Source of the DNA: a virus
Taxonomy: Duplodnaviria > Heunggongvirae > Uroviricota > Caudoviricetes
Length of the DNA stretch: 47,026 nt
IMG/VR virus record: IMGVR_UViG_2534681936_000011
Reading direction: 5' to 3' (one strand)
The position numbers and the translations under genes are program-made. Of the stretch, positions 9,316-18,464 are shown one piece after another (the first letter of the stretch is position 1; every line of letters begins with the position of its first letter). Below the pieces are notes generated by a model that was not told the DNA's origin, did not search any database, and was given only the letters and a program-made list of their open reading frames with translations.

Positions 9316-10050
9316 ATGGAGACTGTTTTTGACGCACTGAAAGCGATGGGAAAAGCCACGTCGGTAGAGCTGGCTGCGCGACTTGATATCAGTCGTGAAG
9401 AAGTACTGAACGAGCTGTGGGAACTGAAAAAGGCTGGCTTCGTTGATAAAAGCGTATACACCTGGCGTGTGGCTGATAACAACGTTCAGCAGGAACAGCC
9501 AGCGCCAGAAGAAACCACCACGGCAACAGAAGCGAAAATCTCAGAGTGCGATTTAACCGCGACGATTGAACAACGCGGACCACAAACGGCGGATGAACTG
9601 GCTACGCTGTTCGGTACAACATCCCGCAAAGTTGCTTCAACGCTGGCAATGGCAATCAGCAAAGGTCGTCTGATTCGCGTAAACCAGAACGGTAAAATTC
9701 GTTACTGCATACCAGGTGATAATTTACCAGCAGAGCCGAAAGTTGAATCGGTAGCGGAAACCGATGGTAAAGCCTTTCCTCAGCCAGCCGGTGTTGCGTT
9801 ACCGGTACAGAAAGATGCAACACAGGAAGATATTAAAACAGAAACTGTGGCGGACATTGTGCAGTCGCTGCCATCGTTTACTGCAACGCGAGAAGATGAT
9901 TTGATTTTGCCATCGCTGCATATGGCAAATCGCGAACTGCGTAGGGCGAAGAATCATGTCCAGAAGTGGGAGCGAGTCTGCGCCGCGCTGCGGGAGCTGA
10001 ACAAGCACCGGGATATGGTTGCCGGGATTTGTCGGAAGTCCGGGCAATGA
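9316..10050 (+). CDS. Hypothetical phage protein with two tandem winged-helix-like segments
   Basis: 244 aa with GGGAGG SD; two similar segments ([30 protein letters not shown] and [30 protein letters not shown]). Confidence 0.55.
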
Positions 10051-10211
10051 GCGGATGGTGCAGGCCTGAAATCATGATACTAACAATGAAGGTAAAATGC
10101 ATCGGCAGTCTGATTGGTCGTAGTGAGGCGGCGGTCAGGATGAAAGCCCAGGTTAAGGGAATAAGCCTGATTCTGCGGGGTGATTTTCACCAGTCAACAA
10201 AATATCCGTAG
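10047..10211 (+). CDS. Small hypothetical ORF, translationally coupled to the upstream gene
   Basis: ATG overlaps the upstream TGA (ATGA); 54 aa; no family recognised. Confidence 0.3.
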
Positions 10212-10909
10212 CGCGATAACGGTCAAAAATTATGGCGCTGACACTTTTGTGCCACTGGAGATGACTGTACCTAAGTTCAGGGGAGAAGAACACGTCCGGT
10301 GGGATGGTCGGGCCAGATTTAAAGGGCAGGTCATGGCTCCAGCCTGTACGCTGGCAATGGAGGCTGCCTGGCGGGAAATTGATATGGGAACCACGCCACT
10401 CAGGGATTTACTGCCGGTCCAGAGAATAAATTCCTGTTACGGTTACACCACTGTGATCTTGCAAGTGCAGGAAAGTAGGTCTACACGGTAACGCGAGTGC
10501 GTGTAACTTTTGATGTCATTCCCGTAGAAACACCGGACAAATTTTCGCTGACAGGTCATGCAGAAGGTATAAATCTGCAGATTATGGACAATTACGGATA
10601 TCCGGCAAGAGCCGGAAAAAGCATGCCGCCTCTAATTCTCAGTGGAAGATGGACTTGATTATACTCATTGCATTGTCAGAAATAGTTATCCATTAAAGGC
10701 TGGCTATTCCAAACAGGATGTTGATTACAAAAATGTAATCAACATGTAAGGTTTATACTCTTCAATATGCGTATAATTTTCCTTATTTTGTTGACTTTAA
10801 ATAACAAGCTATGCACGAGGTAAAGTCGGATAAGTTTATCTGGATGTAATATATATTATTTGTAGTGTTTATAACTTTATTTCATGATAACCAATAAAAG
10901 GAGTTTTTT

Positions 10910-11668
10910 ATGAGGAACATAATGGCAGGTTTTTTAATATTCCTGTCTTCTGCTGCTTATGCTGATATCAATCTGTATGGTCCTGGTGGCCCGCATACAG
11001 CCTTGCTTGATGCAGCCAAACTTTATGCCGAAAAAACAGGTATTATAGTGAACGTTCATTACGGCCCACAGAACAAATGGAATGAAGATGCCAAAAAAAA
11101 TGCAGATATCTTGTTTGGCGCATCAGAACAATCTGCTCTGGCTATCATTCGGGACCATAAAGACAGCTTCAGTGAAAAAGATATTCAGCCTCTTTATCTG
11201 CGAAAAAGTATTTTACTGGTAAAGAAAGGTAATCCTAAAAATATCCGGAGTATTGACGACCTGACCAGACCTGGGATTGGCGTAATTGTTAATGATGGTG
11301 GTGGTACCAGTAATACATCAGGCACTGGCGTCTGGGAAGATATTGCCGGACGTAAAGGGAATATAGAAACTGTCGCCGCAATCCGAAAAAATATTATTTT
11401 ATATGCGCCCAATAGCGGAACTGCACGTAAGGCTCTTGAGAATCAGCCTGGAGCAGATGTCTGGATAACCTGGGCTGACTGGGCAGCCAGTAATCCAGAA
11501 ATTGGTGATGTCGTGGAAATAGCGCCAGACTACGTGATATGGCGTGATATGAACATTACAGTACGTCAGGATGCAAATGATGAAACCCGTCGATTTGCAG
11601 AATGGCTACAAACCGATGAAGCGGCGCCTGCATTCAAAAAATATGGCTGGACCAGGAAAGGCACTTGA
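10910..11668 (+). CDS. Orphan periplasmic solute-binding protein (ModA-like fold) with signal peptide
   Basis: 252 aa; AAGGAG SD; signal peptide MAGFLIFLSSAAYA; C-terminus ...AAPAFKKYGWTRKGT patterns like the ModA-type end (...AAEIFKRYGFTIK); AT-rich flanks; no transporter partners. Confidence 0.55.
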   Translation: MRNIMAGFLIFLSSAAYADINLYGPGGPHTALLDAAKLYAEKTGIIVNVHYGPQNKWNEDAKKNADILFGASEQSALAIIRDHKDSFSEKDIQPLYLRKSILLVKKGNPKNIRSIDDLTRPGIGVIVNDGGGTSNTSGTGVWEDIAGRKGNIETVAAIRKNIILYAPNSGTARKALENQPGADVWITWADWAASNPEIGDVVEIAPDYVIWRDMNITVRQDANDETRRFAEWLQTDEAAPAFKKYGWTRKGT

Positions 11669-11787
11669 CATCCTCGTCCTTCAGGACGTGGATTCTTTTT
11701 CCGGATGCCGCGCCAGCGGCATGTAGGGGCAGCTCACAAAACGGAAAAAATTGTACGCTAAGCCTCGCCAGGTGAACTGAATTCATT

Positions 11788-11811: not shown

Positions 11812-12003
11812 GCGAAAACGGTTTGCTGTAACGGCAGAGTTAAGTAGGATTGCTGCGGGTGCTTGAGGCTATCTGCCTCGGGCATGAACACCAACGGCAG
11901 ATAGATAAAAGCCCCACCCGACTATAAATCGAAGTGAGGCCCCTATATGCTCGTCACATATAGATTGCCTCTTACGGACCGAAAGGTCAAGGAGAAGCAG
12001 GCT

Positions 12004-12159
12004 ATGAAGCAGCAAAAGGCGATGTTAATCGCCCTGATCGTCATCTGTTTAACCGTCATAGTGACGGCACTGGTAACGAGGAAAGACCTCTGCGAGGTAC
12101 GAATCCGAACCGGCCAGACGGAGGTCGCTGTCTTCACAGCTTACGAACCTGAGGAGTAA
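12004..12159 (+). CDS. hok: Hok/Gef-family type I toxin
   Basis: 51 aa MKQQKAMLIALIVICLTVIVTALVTRKDLCEVRIRTGQTEVAVFTAYEPEE, a canonical Hok sequence; an in-frame upstream extension (from 11947) occupies the mok position. Confidence 0.8.
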   Translation: MKQQKAMLIALIVICLTVIVTALVTRKDLCEVRIRTGQTEVAVFTAYEPEE

Positions 12160-15290: not shown

Positions 15291-15366
15291 GGCCCTTTAG
15301 CTCAGTGGTGAGAGCGAGCGACTCATAATCGCCAGGTCGCTGGTTCAAATCCAGCAAGGGCCACCA
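15291..15366 (+). tRNA. ileZ: tRNA-Ile (anticodon CAU, lysidine type, ileZ-like)
   Basis: Cloverleaf: acceptor GGCCCTT/AAGGGCC, D-arm GCTC...GAGC, anticodon loop CTCATAA, T-loop TTCAAAT, CCA end; close to the recalled E. coli ileX sequence. Confidence 0.85.
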
Positions 15367-15367
15367 A

Positions 15368-15443
15368 CCGCCACTAGCCATCAGGAAAGAGCGTCAACCC
15401 TTTAAGTTGAGTGTGCGAGGTTCGAGTCCCCGGTGGTGGTCCA
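15368..15443 (+). tRNA. tRNA-like element with degenerate D-arm; anticodon uncertain
   Basis: Acceptor CCGCCAC/GTGGTGG (one G-U), T-arm CGAGG-TTCGAGT-CCCCG, CCA end, anticodon stem TCAAC/GTTGA; loop CCTTTAA has C at position 33 and the D-stem is weak. Confidence 0.4.
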
Positions 15444-15456
15444 TTATCGGTATTCT

Positions 15457-15533
15457 GCGTTGTTAGCTCAGCAGGACAGAGCAATTGCCTTCTAAGCAAT
15501 CGGTCACTGGTTCGACTCCAGTACAACGCGCTA
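15457..15533 (+). tRNA. argO: tRNA-Arg (anticodon UCU, argO-like)
   Basis: Acceptor GCGTTGT/ACAACGC, D-arm TAGCTCAGCAGGACAGAGC, anticodon loop CTTCTAA, T-arm ACTGG-TTCGACT-CCAGT. Confidence 0.8.
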
Positions 15534-16299: not shown

Positions 16300-16613
16300 T
16301 TTTTTTGTTTGCTGTTTATTAAAAACACTTCTGCATGGTGAATCCCCCTGTGCGGTGGGGCAATCAGCAAGAAGGAATATGGGGTAATCGCGGATTCAGG
16401 TGCTGATACTGAATTCACCGGGAGGCACCCGGCACCATGCTTTGCCACAAAAGTGTTATTTCTGTTTTTCTCAAACTATCATCGTTATCCCTTTATTTTC
16501 GGCTGCGCATGGCGCGGCCTTTTTTTTACGACCAGCCACTGGCAGATGGTCATCCTGTGATTTGATTCCGCTTCCGGCTTTTTAACTCTGTTCCTCTACA
16601 CGGGAGAAATTCG

Positions 16614-18464
16614 ATGTCGATTAAACATTACGATGTTATCAGGGCGGCGTCGCCGTCAGACCTTGCGGAAAAGCTGACACACAAACTGAAAGAGGGCTGG
16701 CAGCCATACGGCGGACCGGTTGCCATTACGCCGTACACACTGATGCAGGCGGTGGCTATTGAAGGAGAGCCACAGGTCGGCCCTTCATCTGAGCCGGATT
16801 GGTACTACGTCATCGTACTGGCCGGGCAGTCCAATGCAATGGCTTACGGTGAAGGGCTTCCGCTGCCGGATTCATACGATGCTCCGGATCCGCGCATTAA
16901 ACAGCTGGCGCGCCGCAGTACAGTGACGCCGGGTGGGGCTGCCTGCAGATATAACGATATTATTCCGGCTGACCACTGTCTGCATGATGTGCAGGATATG
17001 AGTACGCTGAATCATCCGAGGGCTGACCTGAGCAAAGGGCAGTACGGCTGTGTCGGTCAGGGTTTACATATTGCCAAAAAACTGCTCCCGTATATCCCGA
17101 ATAACGCGGGGATCCTGCTGGTACCATGCTGTCGTGGTGGTTCGGCATTTACCCAGGGCGCGGAGGGGACATTCAGCGAGTCCACGGGGGCCAGTCAGGA
17201 TTCGGCACGCTGGGGGGTGGGCAAGCCGTTATATCAGGATCTGATTTCCCGCACAAAAGCGGCATTGCAGAAAAATCCCAAAAACGTTCTGCTGGCCGTC
17301 TGCTGGATGCAGGGTGAGTTTGACATGAGCGCCGCCACCCACGCACAGCAACCTGCGCTGTTTACAGCCATGCTGACACAGTTTCGTGCTGACCTCTCCG
17401 TGTTTAACGCGCAGTGCCATGGTGGCAGTGCTGCAGATGTGCCGTGGGTTTGTGGTGACACGACGTATTACTGGAAAAATACATACGCTACCCAGTACGA
17501 CACCGTGTACGGCGGGTATAAAAACAGGGAGAGTGAGGGCGTTTATTTTGTGCCCTTCATGACAGACGGTAACGGCGTCAATACCGCCACTAACGCGCCG
17601 GCAGAAGATCCGGATATTCCGGCATCAGGATATTACGGTGCGGCATCGAGAACGAATGGAAACCAGGTATCATCAAACCGCCCGACACATTTCAGTTCAT
17701 GGGCGCGCAGGAGCATTATTCCGGATCGTCTGGCAACCGCTATTCTGAACGCAGCCGGGCGCACCTCAGCCTTCATCAGTGGTAAGGCACCGGAAATCAA
17801 ACCCTCGCCCGGCGGCAACACGCCATCGGGTCCGTCTGCAGATACGTCCGTTCGCACAATCTCCCTGCTGCCGGCAGCCGGAGAGGCTGCTGCGCAGGGC
17901 TGGAGCATTAAGGATGGCGGAATTCAGTTGTCAGATGGTGTATTTAAGATCACCAAGCAGAGCAATAAAACCTGGTCCCTGACGCATCCGGTGGATGACG
18001 CAATTACCCTGCTGACACAGGGCGGCAGACTGACCTGTAAGTTCCGCCTGTCAGGCGCACTGACCAACAATCAGTTCGGGCTGGGGATTTATCTGTATAC
18101 GGATGCTCCCGTTCCTGATGGTGTGGCGATGACGGGTACCGGTAATCCGTTCCTGATGTCGTACTTCACTCAGACCACTGACGGCAGAGTGAATCTGATG
18201 CATCACAGGAAAGCCGGAAACACGAAGCTGGGGGAGTTCGGCGATTACGGTAACGACTGGCAGACGCTGGAGCTGGTGTTCACCGCCGGCAGTGCCACGG
18301 TTACTCCGAAACTGAATGGAGTGGCTGGCCCGGCATTCCAGGTTATAAAAGACAGTCTGACACTGGGACTGAATGCGCTGACGCTGACGGATGTTACAAA
18401 AAATGCAGCGTATGGCGTTGAGATAGAAAGTCTGATGCTGGAGATAAATGCACCGGCAGCATAA
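16614..18464 (+). CDS. nanS-p: NanS-p-like sialate O-acetylesterase (N-terminal DUF1737, SASA-like esterase, C-terminal domain)
   Basis: 616 aa; N-terminus MSIKHYDVIRAASPSDLAEKL; esterase motif region LAGQSNAMAYGEG; same position as the esterase downstream of stx in Stx phages. Confidence 0.7.
   Translation: MSIKHYDVIRAASPSDLAEKLTHKLKEGWQPYGGPVAITPYTLMQAVAIEGEPQVGPSSEPDWYYVIVLAGQSNAMAYGEGLPLPDSYDAPDPRIKQLARRSTVTPGGAACRYNDIIPADHCLHDVQDMSTLNHPRADLSKGQYGCVGQGLHIAKKLLPYIPNNAGILLVPCCRGGSAFTQGAEGTFSESTGASQDSARWGVGKPLYQDLISRTKAALQKNPKNVLLAVCWMQGEFDMSAATHAQQPALFTAMLTQFRADLSVFNAQCHGGSAADVPWVCGDTTYYWKNTYATQYDTVYGGYKNRESEGVYFVPFMTDGNGVNTATNAPAEDPDIPASGYYGAASRTNGNQVSSNRPTHFSSWARRSIIPDRLATAILNAAGRTSAFISGKAPEIKPSPGGNTPSGPSADTSVRTISLLPAAGEAAAQGWSIKDGGIQLSDGVFKITKQSNKTWSLTHPVDDAITLLTQGGRLTCKFRLSGALTNNQFGLGIYLYTDAPVPDGVAMTGTGNPFLMSYFTQTTDGRVNLMHHRKAGNTKLGEFGDYGNDWQTLELVFTAGSATVTPKLNGVAGPAFQVIKDSLTLGLNALTLTDVTKNAAYGVEIESLMLEINAPAA

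What the first reader, a model, noticed from the sequence alone, without database searches (positions are those of the whole stretch)
10910..11668. Orphan periplasmic solute-binding protein in an AT-rich moron island
A 252-aa secreted protein with a ModA-like C-terminus is encoded alone, with no permease or ATPase, between the replication genes and the hok locus. It has its own SD, AT-rich flanks and a downstream terminator-like hairpin. A lone binding protein on a prophage could act in nutrient scavenging or as a surface or receptor-masking factor.
Basis: partly seen in the sequence, partly recalled or inferred. Interest (0 to 1): 0.5.

Follow-up and report, generated by a model that had tools for sequence, protein, structure and literature searches.

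The report
Known prophage colonisation gene paa/adfO
The flagged gene is paa (also called adfO), a well-known prophage-borne colonisation factor of pathogenic E. coli that belongs to the AcfC/PEB3 family of stand-alone periplasmic binding proteins, so the finding is real but already described.

Summary
The ORF at 10910-11668 (+) is real and codes for 252 aa. It has an AAGGAG Shine-Dalgarno site 6 nt upstream, an 18-residue Sec-type signal peptide (…AYA|DINLYG) and a hairpin with a T-run just after the stop codon. The protein is 100% identical to RefSeq "AcfC family adhesin Paa" (WP_001449026.1). The same DNA is annotated "Paa/adherence factor AdfO" in 11 PPompW and Stx2a phage records and occurs in 611 of 5,426 complete E. 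coli genomes. It matches Pfam SBP_bac_11 over its full length. It is about 50% identical to the solved structures of C. jejuni PEB3 and V. cholerae AcfC, and an AF2 model superposes on them (TM 0.86-0.89). ModA and sulfate-binding proteins are the next-best folds. It missed that this is a named virulence gene, and only the upstream flank is AT-rich. No permease or ATPase gene forms an operon with it here or with the homologues checked in two plasmids and four other genera. How it promotes adherence is unresolved in the literature and here. Novelty: already known. Interest: low.

The parts
10244..10708 (+). Remnant of a chaperone-usher fimbrial subunit gene (pseudogene), directly abutting the paa cassette
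   Evidence: RefSeq annotates 'fimbrial protein; frameshifted; internal stop' at the equivalent of window 10216-10749. The stretch is 85.8% identical over 480 nt to an intact fimbrial subunit gene of a chaperone-usher operon on IncF plasmid pGE3. The broken ORFs 10180-10491 and 10497-10658 give no Pfam hit on their own.
10706..10909 (+). AT-rich upstream region of the paa cassette; presumed promoter/regulatory region (inferred, not located)
   Evidence: GC is 27.5-35% here against 51.7% for the window. The region travels with the gene: homology to the plasmid-borne allele starts at 10706. No good sigma-70 consensus was found (best 8 of 12 matches).
10898..10903 (+). Shine-Dalgarno sequence AAGGAG, 6 nt before the ATG
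   Evidence: Read directly from the sequence.
10910..11668 (+). paa / adfO coding sequence (252 aa plus stop); AcfC/PEB3-family binding protein
   Evidence: ORF. Pfam SBP_bac_11, E 5.5e-34. 100% identical to 'AcfC family adhesin Paa'. PEB3 at 1.2e-81 and AcfC at 3.5e-81 in the PDB sequence search. AF2 model pLDDT 90.7, TM 0.89 to AcfC 4jb7. dN/dS 0.07 against the plasmid allele.
10910..10963 (+). Signal peptide (residues 1-18, MRNIMAGFLIFLSSAAYA), predicted signal peptidase I cleavage before D19
   Evidence: Hydrophobicity profile and -3/-1 rule. The mature PEB3 crystal chain begins at the aligned residue 19. The leader is variable and the mature N-terminus conserved across 22 homologues. The leader has low pLDDT and is helical in the model. 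Cleavage itself was not tested.
11309..11329 (+). Codons for the invariant S134-N135-T136-S137-G138-T139-G140 loop, the predicted anion-binding loop
   Evidence: Invariant in all 22 aligned family members. It aligns to PEB3 S136-G142, which contains T138/S139. The role of T138/S139 as ligand-site residues comes from my recollection of Min et al. 2009, not from a paper read here.
11667..11702 (+). Terminator-like hairpin and U-rich tail just after the stop codon
   Evidence: Scan hit at 11675-11688. The extended stem folds at -13.3 kcal/mol, z = -2.25. It lies inside the segment shared with the plasmid allele, which ends at 11728.
11857..12159 (+). Neighbouring hok/sok (hokD, also called 'ckf') type I toxin-antitoxin locus; context only, not part of paa
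   Evidence: Rfam sok RF01794 at 11857-12006, 103.9 bits. hokD CDS is annotated at the equivalent of 12004-12159. The literature notes that adfO is always found together with ckf.

Best explanation
The gene is paa (also named adfO), the 'porcine attaching-and-effacing associated' colonisation factor carried as cargo by lambdoid prophages of EHEC and EPEC. Here the prophage is PPompW-like.

Proposed mechanism, step by step:
1. The precursor is made from its own ribosome-binding site and exported by Sec. It is probably cut after Ala18 (inferred).
2. The 25.8-kDa mature protein folds into the two-lobed type II periplasmic-binding fold of the AcfC/PEB3 family (shown by homology and by the model).
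3. It clamps a small anionic ligand between the lobes using the invariant S-N-T-S-G-T-G loop. Candidate ligands are phosphate-, sulfate- or carboxylate-bearing molecules, as in the PEB3 complex with phospholactate and the AcfC complex with D-aspartate (inferred).
4. It has no transporter of its own. The family is encoded as a single gene, outside any transporter operon, in every context checked.
5. In the lysogen it promotes early adherence and colonisation (published for Paa/AdfO; not testable here).

My preferred route for step 5 is indirect. The ligand-bound protein would act in the periplasm through a membrane partner encoded elsewhere (a chemoreceptor or an importer), as reported for AcfC and suggested for PEB3. 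I think this is more likely than Paa being a tethered surface adhesin, because the sequence has no lipobox, no membrane anchor and no Cys.

Confidence by step: identity as paa about 0.98; fold and anion-binding class about 0.9; indirect rather than direct adhesion about 0.5.
For: Identity:
- 100% DNA identity to 11 phage records annotated Paa/AdfO.
- Present in 611 of 5,426 complete E. coli genomes, annotated 'paa: AcfC family adhesin Paa'.
- The identical protein cluster P0001 carries that name.

Family and fold:
- Pfam SBP_bac_11 over the full length.
- PEB3 and AcfC at E about 1e-81 and about 50% identity.
- AF2 pLDDT 90.7; Foldseek TM 0.89 to AcfC and 0.86-0.88 to PEB3, then ModA and sulfate-binding proteins at about 0.7.

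Ligand site: the SNTSGTG loop is invariant in 22 homologues and aligns with PEB3 T138/S139.

Export: signal-peptide features. AcfC was shown to be periplasmic by cell fractionation (PMC5976639).

Still functional: dN/dS 0.07 against the plasmid allele.

Encoded alone: no permease or ATPase gene forms an operon with it here, on E. coli and Salmonella plasmids, or in Edwardsiella, Enterobacter, Francisella and Campylobacter.

Biology from the literature:
- Paa contributes to A/E lesion formation (PMC2749873).
- An adfO mutant adheres less to HeLa cells and secretes fewer proteins (PMC8565820).
- AcfC binds sulfated glycans, is needed for chemotaxis to mucin, and is not an adhesin on cell lines (PMC5976639).
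- The EDL933 gene is induced in rumen and rectum contents (PMC8524897).
Against: - No ligand of Paa is known, and none can be assigned from sequence.
- The published label is 'adhesin'. The AcfC paper says its orthologues PEB3 and Paa are considered adhesins. This argues against a purely periplasmic, indirect role.
- No promoter could be located in the AT-rich upstream region, so independent expression in the lysogen is inferred from published transcriptomics, not from this sequence.
- No candidate partner (chemoreceptor or transporter) was identified.
- The original Paa, AdfO and PEB3 papers could not be read here.
Confidence: 0.75

Rival explanations
1. Paa is a true surface adhesin. After Sec export it reaches the outer surface, for example by type 2 secretion and re-binding, and attaches the bacterium directly to sulfated host glycans or mucin.
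For: The RefSeq and phage annotations call it an adhesin or adherence factor. The literature treats Paa and PEB3 as adhesins (PMC5976639; PMC2749873). An adfO mutant adheres less to HeLa cells. Recombinant AcfC binds heparin, chondroitin sulfate and mucin in ELISA.
Against: The sequence has no lipobox, Cys, beta-barrel or anchor. The fold is that of a soluble periplasmic binding protein. The homologue AcfC is periplasmic and did not mediate adhesion to Caco-2 or HT-29MTX cells. The adfO mutant also shows reduced secretion of other proteins, which points to an indirect, pleiotropic effect.
Confidence: 0.3
2. Paa is the substrate-binding component of an ABC importer whose membrane parts are encoded elsewhere in the host chromosome. 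It scavenges a host-derived phospho- or sulfo-metabolite; this is the first reader's 'nutrient scavenging' idea.
For: The fold and the conserved anion loop are those of ABC-type binding proteins. PEB3 was crystallised with phospholactate and is listed as binding PEP and 3-phosphoglycerate (PMC8835900).
Against: No permease or ATPase gene is in an operon with it in any of the seven contexts examined across five genera. The only ABC system nearby, in Enterobacter, is separated by about 690 bp and has its own binding protein. A mobile gene that hops between prophages and plasmids cannot count on a matching transporter in each host. Scores against curated ModA, Sbp and CysP models are far below their cut-offs.
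Confidence: 0.15
3. Paa serves the phage rather than the host, for example by masking a receptor or excluding superinfecting phages.
For: Only its position as prophage cargo next to other accessory genes.
Against: The same cassette sits on non-phage IncF plasmids beside an enterotoxin gene, and as a chromosomal gene in Edwardsiella, Enterobacter, Francisella and Campylobacter. The protein is soluble and not membrane-associated. No such phenotype is reported in the papers read.
Confidence: 0.03

Closest known systems
Paa / AdfO of E. coli (porcine EPEC O45 Paa; Z2053 in O-island 57 / CP-933O of O157:H7 EDL933)
   Same: The protein is identical: 100% to the RefSeq cluster named 'AcfC family adhesin Paa'. 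The prophage position beside hokD/ckf is the same.
   Different: Nothing in the gene itself differs. Only the carrier prophage backbone differs in part: the PPompW records cover 75% of the first 25 kb of the window at 98% identity.
Plasmid-borne paa allele of ETEC-type IncF plasmids (WP_001257942.1, annotated 'substrate-binding domain-containing protein')
   Same: The same cassette, including about 200 bp upstream and the terminator, spans window 10706-11728 at 85.9% DNA identity. The protein is 93% identical with dN/dS 0.07. It is also encoded alone.
   Different: It is carried on a conjugative plasmid next to an IS1-flanked STa enterotoxin gene instead of in a prophage. It has no fimbrial remnant upstream.
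PEB3 (Cj0289c) of Campylobacter jejuni; PDB 2hxw, 3fir, 3fj7, 3fjg
   Same: About 50% identity over the whole mature protein (E 1e-81) and the same fold (TM 0.86-0.88). The SNTSGTG loop containing T138/S139 is identical. It is also a stand-alone gene.
   Different: PEB3 is annotated as a glycoprotein adhesin, and one structure is titled 'Glycosylated K135E PEB3'. The PEB3 segment DFNVS aligns to DSFSE in Paa, so Paa lacks that Asn. PEB3 K135 corresponds to T133 in Paa, at a variable column. PEB3 is a chromosomal core gene, not phage cargo.
AcfC (VC_0841) of Vibrio cholerae; PDB 4jb7
   Same: Best structural match (TM 0.89, rmsd 1.3 Å, 52% identity). It is exported, encoded alone, carried on a mobile pathogenicity island and linked to intestinal colonisation.
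   Different: AcfC was shown to be periplasmic, to affect chemotaxis towards mucin and not to mediate cell adhesion. Paa is reported to promote adherence and A/E lesions. Whether these are the same activity seen through different assays is unknown.
ModA and sulfate-binding proteins (Sbp, CysP, SubI) of ABC importers
   Same: Same type II oxyanion-binding fold (TM about 0.7). Weak local sequence matches fall around the anion loop and the C-terminus.
   Different: Only 11-19% identity. Scores are far below the curated family cut-offs. No cognate permease or ATPase is present.

Membership tests
AcfC/PEB3/Paa family (NCBI 'AcfC family adhesin Paa'; Pfam SBP_bac_11) | Full-length sequence similarity to the founding members PEB3 and AcfC | tested here: met
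   phmmer against PDB: PEB3 1.2e-81 (query residues 11-248), AcfC 3.5e-81 (16-248), both about 50% identical. Pfam SBP_bac_11 scores 118 bits against a cut-off of 25.
AcfC/PEB3/Paa family (NCBI 'AcfC family adhesin Paa'; Pfam SBP_bac_11) | Identity with the protein named Paa/AdfO | tested here: met
   100% identical to cluster P0001 'AcfC family adhesin Paa [Escherichia coli]'. 100% DNA identity to records annotated paa or Paa/AdfO.
AcfC/PEB3/Paa family (NCBI 'AcfC family adhesin Paa'; Pfam SBP_bac_11) | Two-lobed type II periplasmic-binding fold superposable on the solved PEB3 and AcfC structures | tested here: met
   AF2 model with pLDDT 90.7 and pTM 0.84. Foldseek: 4jb7 TM 0.89 at rmsd 1.3 Å; PEB3 TM 0.86-0.88.
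AcfC/PEB3/Paa family (NCBI 'AcfC family adhesin Paa'; Pfam SBP_bac_11) | Conserved ligand loop S-N-T-S-G-T-G (PEB3 T138/S139) | tested here: met
   Paa S134-G140 is invariant across 22 homologues and aligns to PEB3 136-142. That T138/S139 contact the ligand is recalled from Min et al. 2009; the paper was not read here.
AcfC/PEB3/Paa family (NCBI 'AcfC family adhesin Paa'; Pfam SBP_bac_11) | N-terminal Sec signal peptide; soluble exported protein | tested here: met
   Sequence features include an A-Y-A|D site after residue 18 and no lipobox. The leader-to-mature boundary is conserved in the alignment. This is a prediction only; cleavage and localisation need experiments.
AcfC/PEB3/Paa family (NCBI 'AcfC family adhesin Paa'; Pfam SBP_bac_11) | Contribution to adherence or intestinal colonisation | not testable with these tools
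   Known from the literature only: PMC2749873, PMC8565820, PMC5976639.
Canonical ABC-importer substrate-binding protein (ModA / Sbp / CysP type) | Encoded with, or demonstrably serving, a cognate permease and ATPase | tested here: not met
   No permease or ATPase gene lies beside paa in the window or on the plasmids. None forms an operon with the homologues in four other genera. An unlinked partner cannot be excluded.
Canonical ABC-importer substrate-binding protein (ModA / Sbp / CysP type) | Score above the curated threshold of a ModA, Sbp or CysP model | tested here: not met
   NCBIfam best scores are 22.6 bits (cut-off 288) for sulfate SBP and 18.3 bits (cut-off 62.5) for modA.
Canonical ABC-importer substrate-binding protein (ModA / Sbp / CysP type) | Type II oxyanion-binding fold | tested here: met
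   ModA 1wod TM 0.71, SubI 6ddn 0.68, Sbp 1sbp 0.69.
Phage moron (lysogenic-conversion cargo gene) | Lies between conserved phage modules and differs from them in base composition | tested here: met
   The gene sits between the replication/DUF1627 genes and the hok-rem-ydfU-rusA-Q block. GC is 43.9% in the gene (GC3 34.8%) and 28% upstream, against 51.7% for the window. The same cassette exists outside phages.
Phage moron (lysogenic-conversion cargo gene) | Own terminator | tested here: met
   Hairpin at 11667-11695 plus a U-run, -13.3 kcal/mol, z = -2.25. It is a consensus-level match; termination was not shown.
Phage moron (lysogenic-conversion cargo gene) | Own promoter active in the lysogen | tested here: inconclusive
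   No convincing sigma-70 match in 10660-10909 (best 8 of 12). Published RNA-seq reports induction of the EDL933 gene in bovine gut contents, which implies expression in the lysogen.

The most novel reading that the evidence does not exclude
Paa may not be an adhesin at all. It could be a prophage-delivered periplasmic sensor. Once loaded with a mucus-derived sulfated, phosphorylated or acidic small molecule, it would dock on a host chemoreceptor or other membrane partner and redirect the lysogen towards the epithelium. The 'adherence' phenotypes would then be secondary. On this reading, a phage or plasmid could give its host a new chemotactic or sensory specificity with a single 1-kb cassette.
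Probability: 0.25. Interest if true: 0.5.

Novelty: already known. Interest (0 to 1): 0.1.

Why it matters
paa is a routinely typed virulence marker of EHEC, EPEC and ETEC, so recognising it correctly annotates this prophage as a virulence-cargo carrier. The window also holds lom and an NleH-like kinase gene. This locus reveals no new biology. The real open question is an old one: how can a soluble, transporter-less binding protein promote adherence? The conserved anion loop and the 1-kb self-contained cassette (promoter region, gene, terminator) shared by prophages and enterotoxin plasmids make that question easy to test by experiment.

Tried and rejected
- Canonical ModA, Sbp or CysP membership was rejected. 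Only partial matches were found, far below the curated cut-offs.
- I looked for a linked permease or ATPase in the window, in two plasmids and in four chromosomal contexts. None forms an operon with the gene. The only nearby ABC system, in Enterobacter, already has its own binding protein and is separated by about 690 bp.
- I looked for a sigma-70 promoter in the AT-rich upstream region, with the scan tool and with a looser script. Nothing convincing turned up. The one 9-of-12 hit on the + strand upstream of paa, at 10636-10665, lies outside the cassette shared with plasmids.
- I tried to read the primary papers on Paa (PMC166039), AdfO (PMC2346697) and the PEB3 structure (PMC2206636). They are not held, so statements about them come from secondary citations or from memory and are marked as such.
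- A literature search for PEB3 ligands gave only a table entry.
- PHROGs places the protein in phrog_11834, 'unknown function', which adds nothing.
- Alternative start codon: the phage records start the CDS at ATG 10922. I prefer 10910, as RefSeq does. The Shine-Dalgarno site is correctly spaced for it, and homologues begin at the same alignment column with a basic residue at position 2-3.
- A non-functional remnant was rejected: dN/dS is 0.07 against the plasmid allele.

Full report
**What is there**

The window carries an ATG-initiated ORF of 252 codons at 10910-11668 on the + strand. AAGGAG lies at 10898-10903, six bases before the ATG.

The first 18 residues, MRNIMAGFLIFLSSAAYA, have the three regions of a Sec signal peptide:
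- a basic residue at position 2;
- a hydrophobic core, with a 9-residue Kyte-Doolittle mean up to 2.8;
- an A-Y-A motif before Asp19.

There is no cysteine anywhere, so this is not a lipoprotein. Twenty-two family members from nine or more genera are variable up to this point and nearly invariant from (D/E)-(I/V)-N-L-Y-G-P-G-G-P-H onwards. The crystallised mature PEB3 chain 2hxw starts at the residue aligned to position 19.

Seven bases into the 3' flank, a hairpin at 11667-11695 followed by UCUUUUU folds at -13.3 kcal/mol (z = -2.25).

The 250 bp upstream are 28% GC and the gene is 43.9% GC (GC3 34.8%). The window as a whole is 51.7% GC, and the 250 bp downstream are an ordinary 52.4%.

**What it is**

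Pfam places the whole mature protein in SBP_bac_11 (E 5.5e-34, residues 20-247 on profile positions 1-226 of 227). Curated NCBIfam models for sulfate, thiosulfate and molybdate binding proteins give only short matches far below threshold.

The DNA (10660-11760) is 99.9-100% identical to 11 phage records, the PPompW prophages and the Stx2a phages recorded together with them. There the gene is annotated [quoted passage not shown]. It also occurs in 611 of 5,426 complete E. coli genomes, where RefSeq calls it "paa: AcfC family adhesin Paa", WP_001449026.1. The protein is 100% identical to a cluster of 616 sequences with that name. This is therefore a known, named gene.

Against solved structures by sequence, it matches C. 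jejuni PEB3 (E 1.2e-81) and V. cholerae AcfC (3.5e-81) at about 50% identity over the whole mature chain. An AlphaFold2 model built on the 22-sequence alignment is confident (pLDDT 90.7, pTM 0.84). It superposes on AcfC 4jb7 (TM 0.89, rmsd 1.3 Å) and on PEB3 (TM 0.86-0.88). ModA, sulfate-binding and ferric-binding proteins follow at TM 0.5-0.73.

**Surroundings**

The gene sits in a lambdoid prophage. Upstream are dicA/dicC-type regulators, replication genes and a DUF1627 gene. Downstream are hokD/sok (Rfam sok at 11857-12006, 103.9 bits), rem, a DUF968 gene, rusA and Q. A review of O157 O-islands notes that adfO (Z2053, OI-57) is always found together with ckf (Z2054), the hok-type gene (PMC8565820). 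So the arrangement is also known.

Immediately upstream (10244-10708) is a decayed fimbrial subunit gene, annotated as frameshifted with an internal stop. It is 85.8% identical to an intact subunit gene of a chaperone-usher operon on IncF plasmid pGE3.

A diverged paa allele sits on IncF plasmids beside an IS1-flanked STa enterotoxin gene. Homology to the window runs from 10706 to 11728 at 85.9%. That segment comprises the AT-rich upstream region, the gene and the hairpin, a self-contained cassette of about 1 kb that begins exactly where the fimbrial remnant ends. The two alleles differ with dN/dS = 0.07, so the protein is under strong purifying selection.

**Is the lone status real?**

Yes, and it is a family trait. 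No permease or ATPase gene forms an operon with the gene here, on E. coli or Salmonella plasmids, or in chromosomal contexts from Edwardsiella, Enterobacter, Francisella and Campylobacter. In Enterobacter a complete ABC system lies about 690 bp upstream, but it has its own binding protein.

**How it most likely works**

Shown here by homology: an exported, soluble, two-lobed binding protein.

Inferred: it binds a small anionic ligand.
- The loop S134-N135-T136-S137-G138-T139-G140 is invariant in all 22 homologues.
- This loop aligns with PEB3 residues 136-142. I recall T138/S139 as the ligand-site pair mutated by Min et al. (Biochemistry 2009); I could not read that paper here.
- The solved relatives carry L-phospholactate (PEB3 3fj7) and D-aspartate (AcfC 4jb7).
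- PEB3 is tabulated as binding PEP and 3-phosphoglycerate (PMC8835900).
- Recombinant AcfC binds heparin, chondroitin sulfate and mucin in ELISA (PMC5976639).

Published biology:
- Paa contributes to attaching-effacing lesion formation and early pathogenesis of porcine EPEC (PMC2749873).
- An O157 adfO mutant adheres poorly to HeLa cells and also secretes less of several proteins (PMC8565820).
- AcfC is periplasmic, is not an adhesin on Caco-2 or HT-29MTX cells, and is needed for chemotaxis towards mucin (PMC5976639).
- The EDL933 gene is induced in bovine rumen and rectum contents (PMC8524897).

Paa has no anchor of any kind, its closest characterised relative works in the periplasm, and the adfO mutant phenotype is pleiotropic. 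I therefore favour an indirect route: ligand-loaded Paa acts through a membrane partner encoded elsewhere. I put this at about 0.5, a direct surface-adhesin role at about 0.3, and plain nutrient import through an unlinked transporter at about 0.15. None of these can be settled by computation.

**Weak points**

- No promoter could be located in the AT-rich region.
- Signal-peptide cleavage is predicted, not shown.
- The primary Paa, AdfO and PEB3 papers were not available.
- The start codon differs between annotations: 10910 in RefSeq and 10922 in the phage records. The Shine-Dalgarno spacing and the homologue alignment favour 10910.

**Verdict**

It is not novel, and interest is low. The only open reading of some interest is that this "adhesin" is really a mobile periplasmic sensor, which would need the experiments listed under next steps.

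Noticed in passing
window 10216-10749 (+): A decayed fimbrial subunit gene abuts the paa cassette. It is about 86% identical to an intact subunit gene of a chaperone-usher operon on IncF plasmids such as pGE3. This suggests the prophage cargo region was assembled from plasmid-derived pieces.
   Followed up: partly
L003 5078-7974 (plasmid pCFS3246-1, NZ_CP026930.2): The plasmid paa allele (93% aa identity) lies about 1.9 kb from an STa enterotoxin gene (sta1) bracketed by IS1 copies. It is also near an IncFII repA and a Hok/Gef gene. RefSeq names it only 'substrate-binding domain-containing protein', although it is clearly a paa allele.
   Followed up: partly
window 11857-12159 (+): A hok/sok type I toxin-antitoxin locus (hokD, also called 'ckf') lies immediately downstream of paa. 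Rfam sok scores 103.9 bits. The long ORF 11947-12159 is the mok/hok overlapping frame.
   Followed up: partly
window 15291-15531 (+): A cluster of three tRNA genes (Met-CAT, Lys-TTT, Arg-TCT) lies downstream of the Q antiterminator region, as is typical of Stx-type lambdoid prophages. Rfam detected only two of the three.
   Followed up: no
window 16304-16476 (+) and 40653-40775 (-): Two Rfam sRNA matches lie inside the prophage: STnc100 (100.8 bits) and the Hfq-binding isrC (150.2 bits). isrC lies between an IS transposase ORF and lom.
   Followed up: no
window 37685-40640: The tail-tip J-like ORF (638 aa, GpJ FNIII-A and Phage-tail_3 domains) ends at 39601. That is exactly where a minus-strand IS transposase ORF (rve integrase core, 39594-40640) begins. 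An IS insertion has probably truncated J, which would make the prophage defective.
   Followed up: no
window 40937-41464 (+) and 46106-47026 (+): There is further virulence-type cargo. One is an Ail/Lom outer-membrane protein gene. The other, at the right edge and cut by the window end, is an ORF with an OspG-type kinase domain, resembling an NleH-type type III effector.
   Followed up: no
window 16614-18464 (+): A 616-aa protein with DUF1737, a SASA (sialate O-acetylesterase) domain and DUF6645. It resembles the NanS-p esterases of Stx prophages, another mucus-related cargo gene.
   Followed up: no
window 44935-45528 (-): A 197-aa ORF with a phage-integrase (tyrosine recombinase) catalytic domain sits near the right end, in addition to the large minus-strand ORF at the left end (1-1284). 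It may be a fragment or belong to a second element.
   Followed up: no
L007 1313-11014 (Enterobacter bugandensis contig): The chromosomal paa homologue lies between an FbpA/AfuA-like ABC system (binding protein, fused permease, ATPase, preceded by a two-component system) and a BvgS/EvgS-like hybrid sensor kinase with SBP_bac_3 domains. This is a possible hint of a sensory context.
   Followed up: no
window 9316-10050 (+): The DUF1627 protein upstream has an N-terminal winged-helix/HTH-like segment (weak HTH_20 and TrmB-type matches at residues 4-46). Its function is unknown.
   Followed up: no
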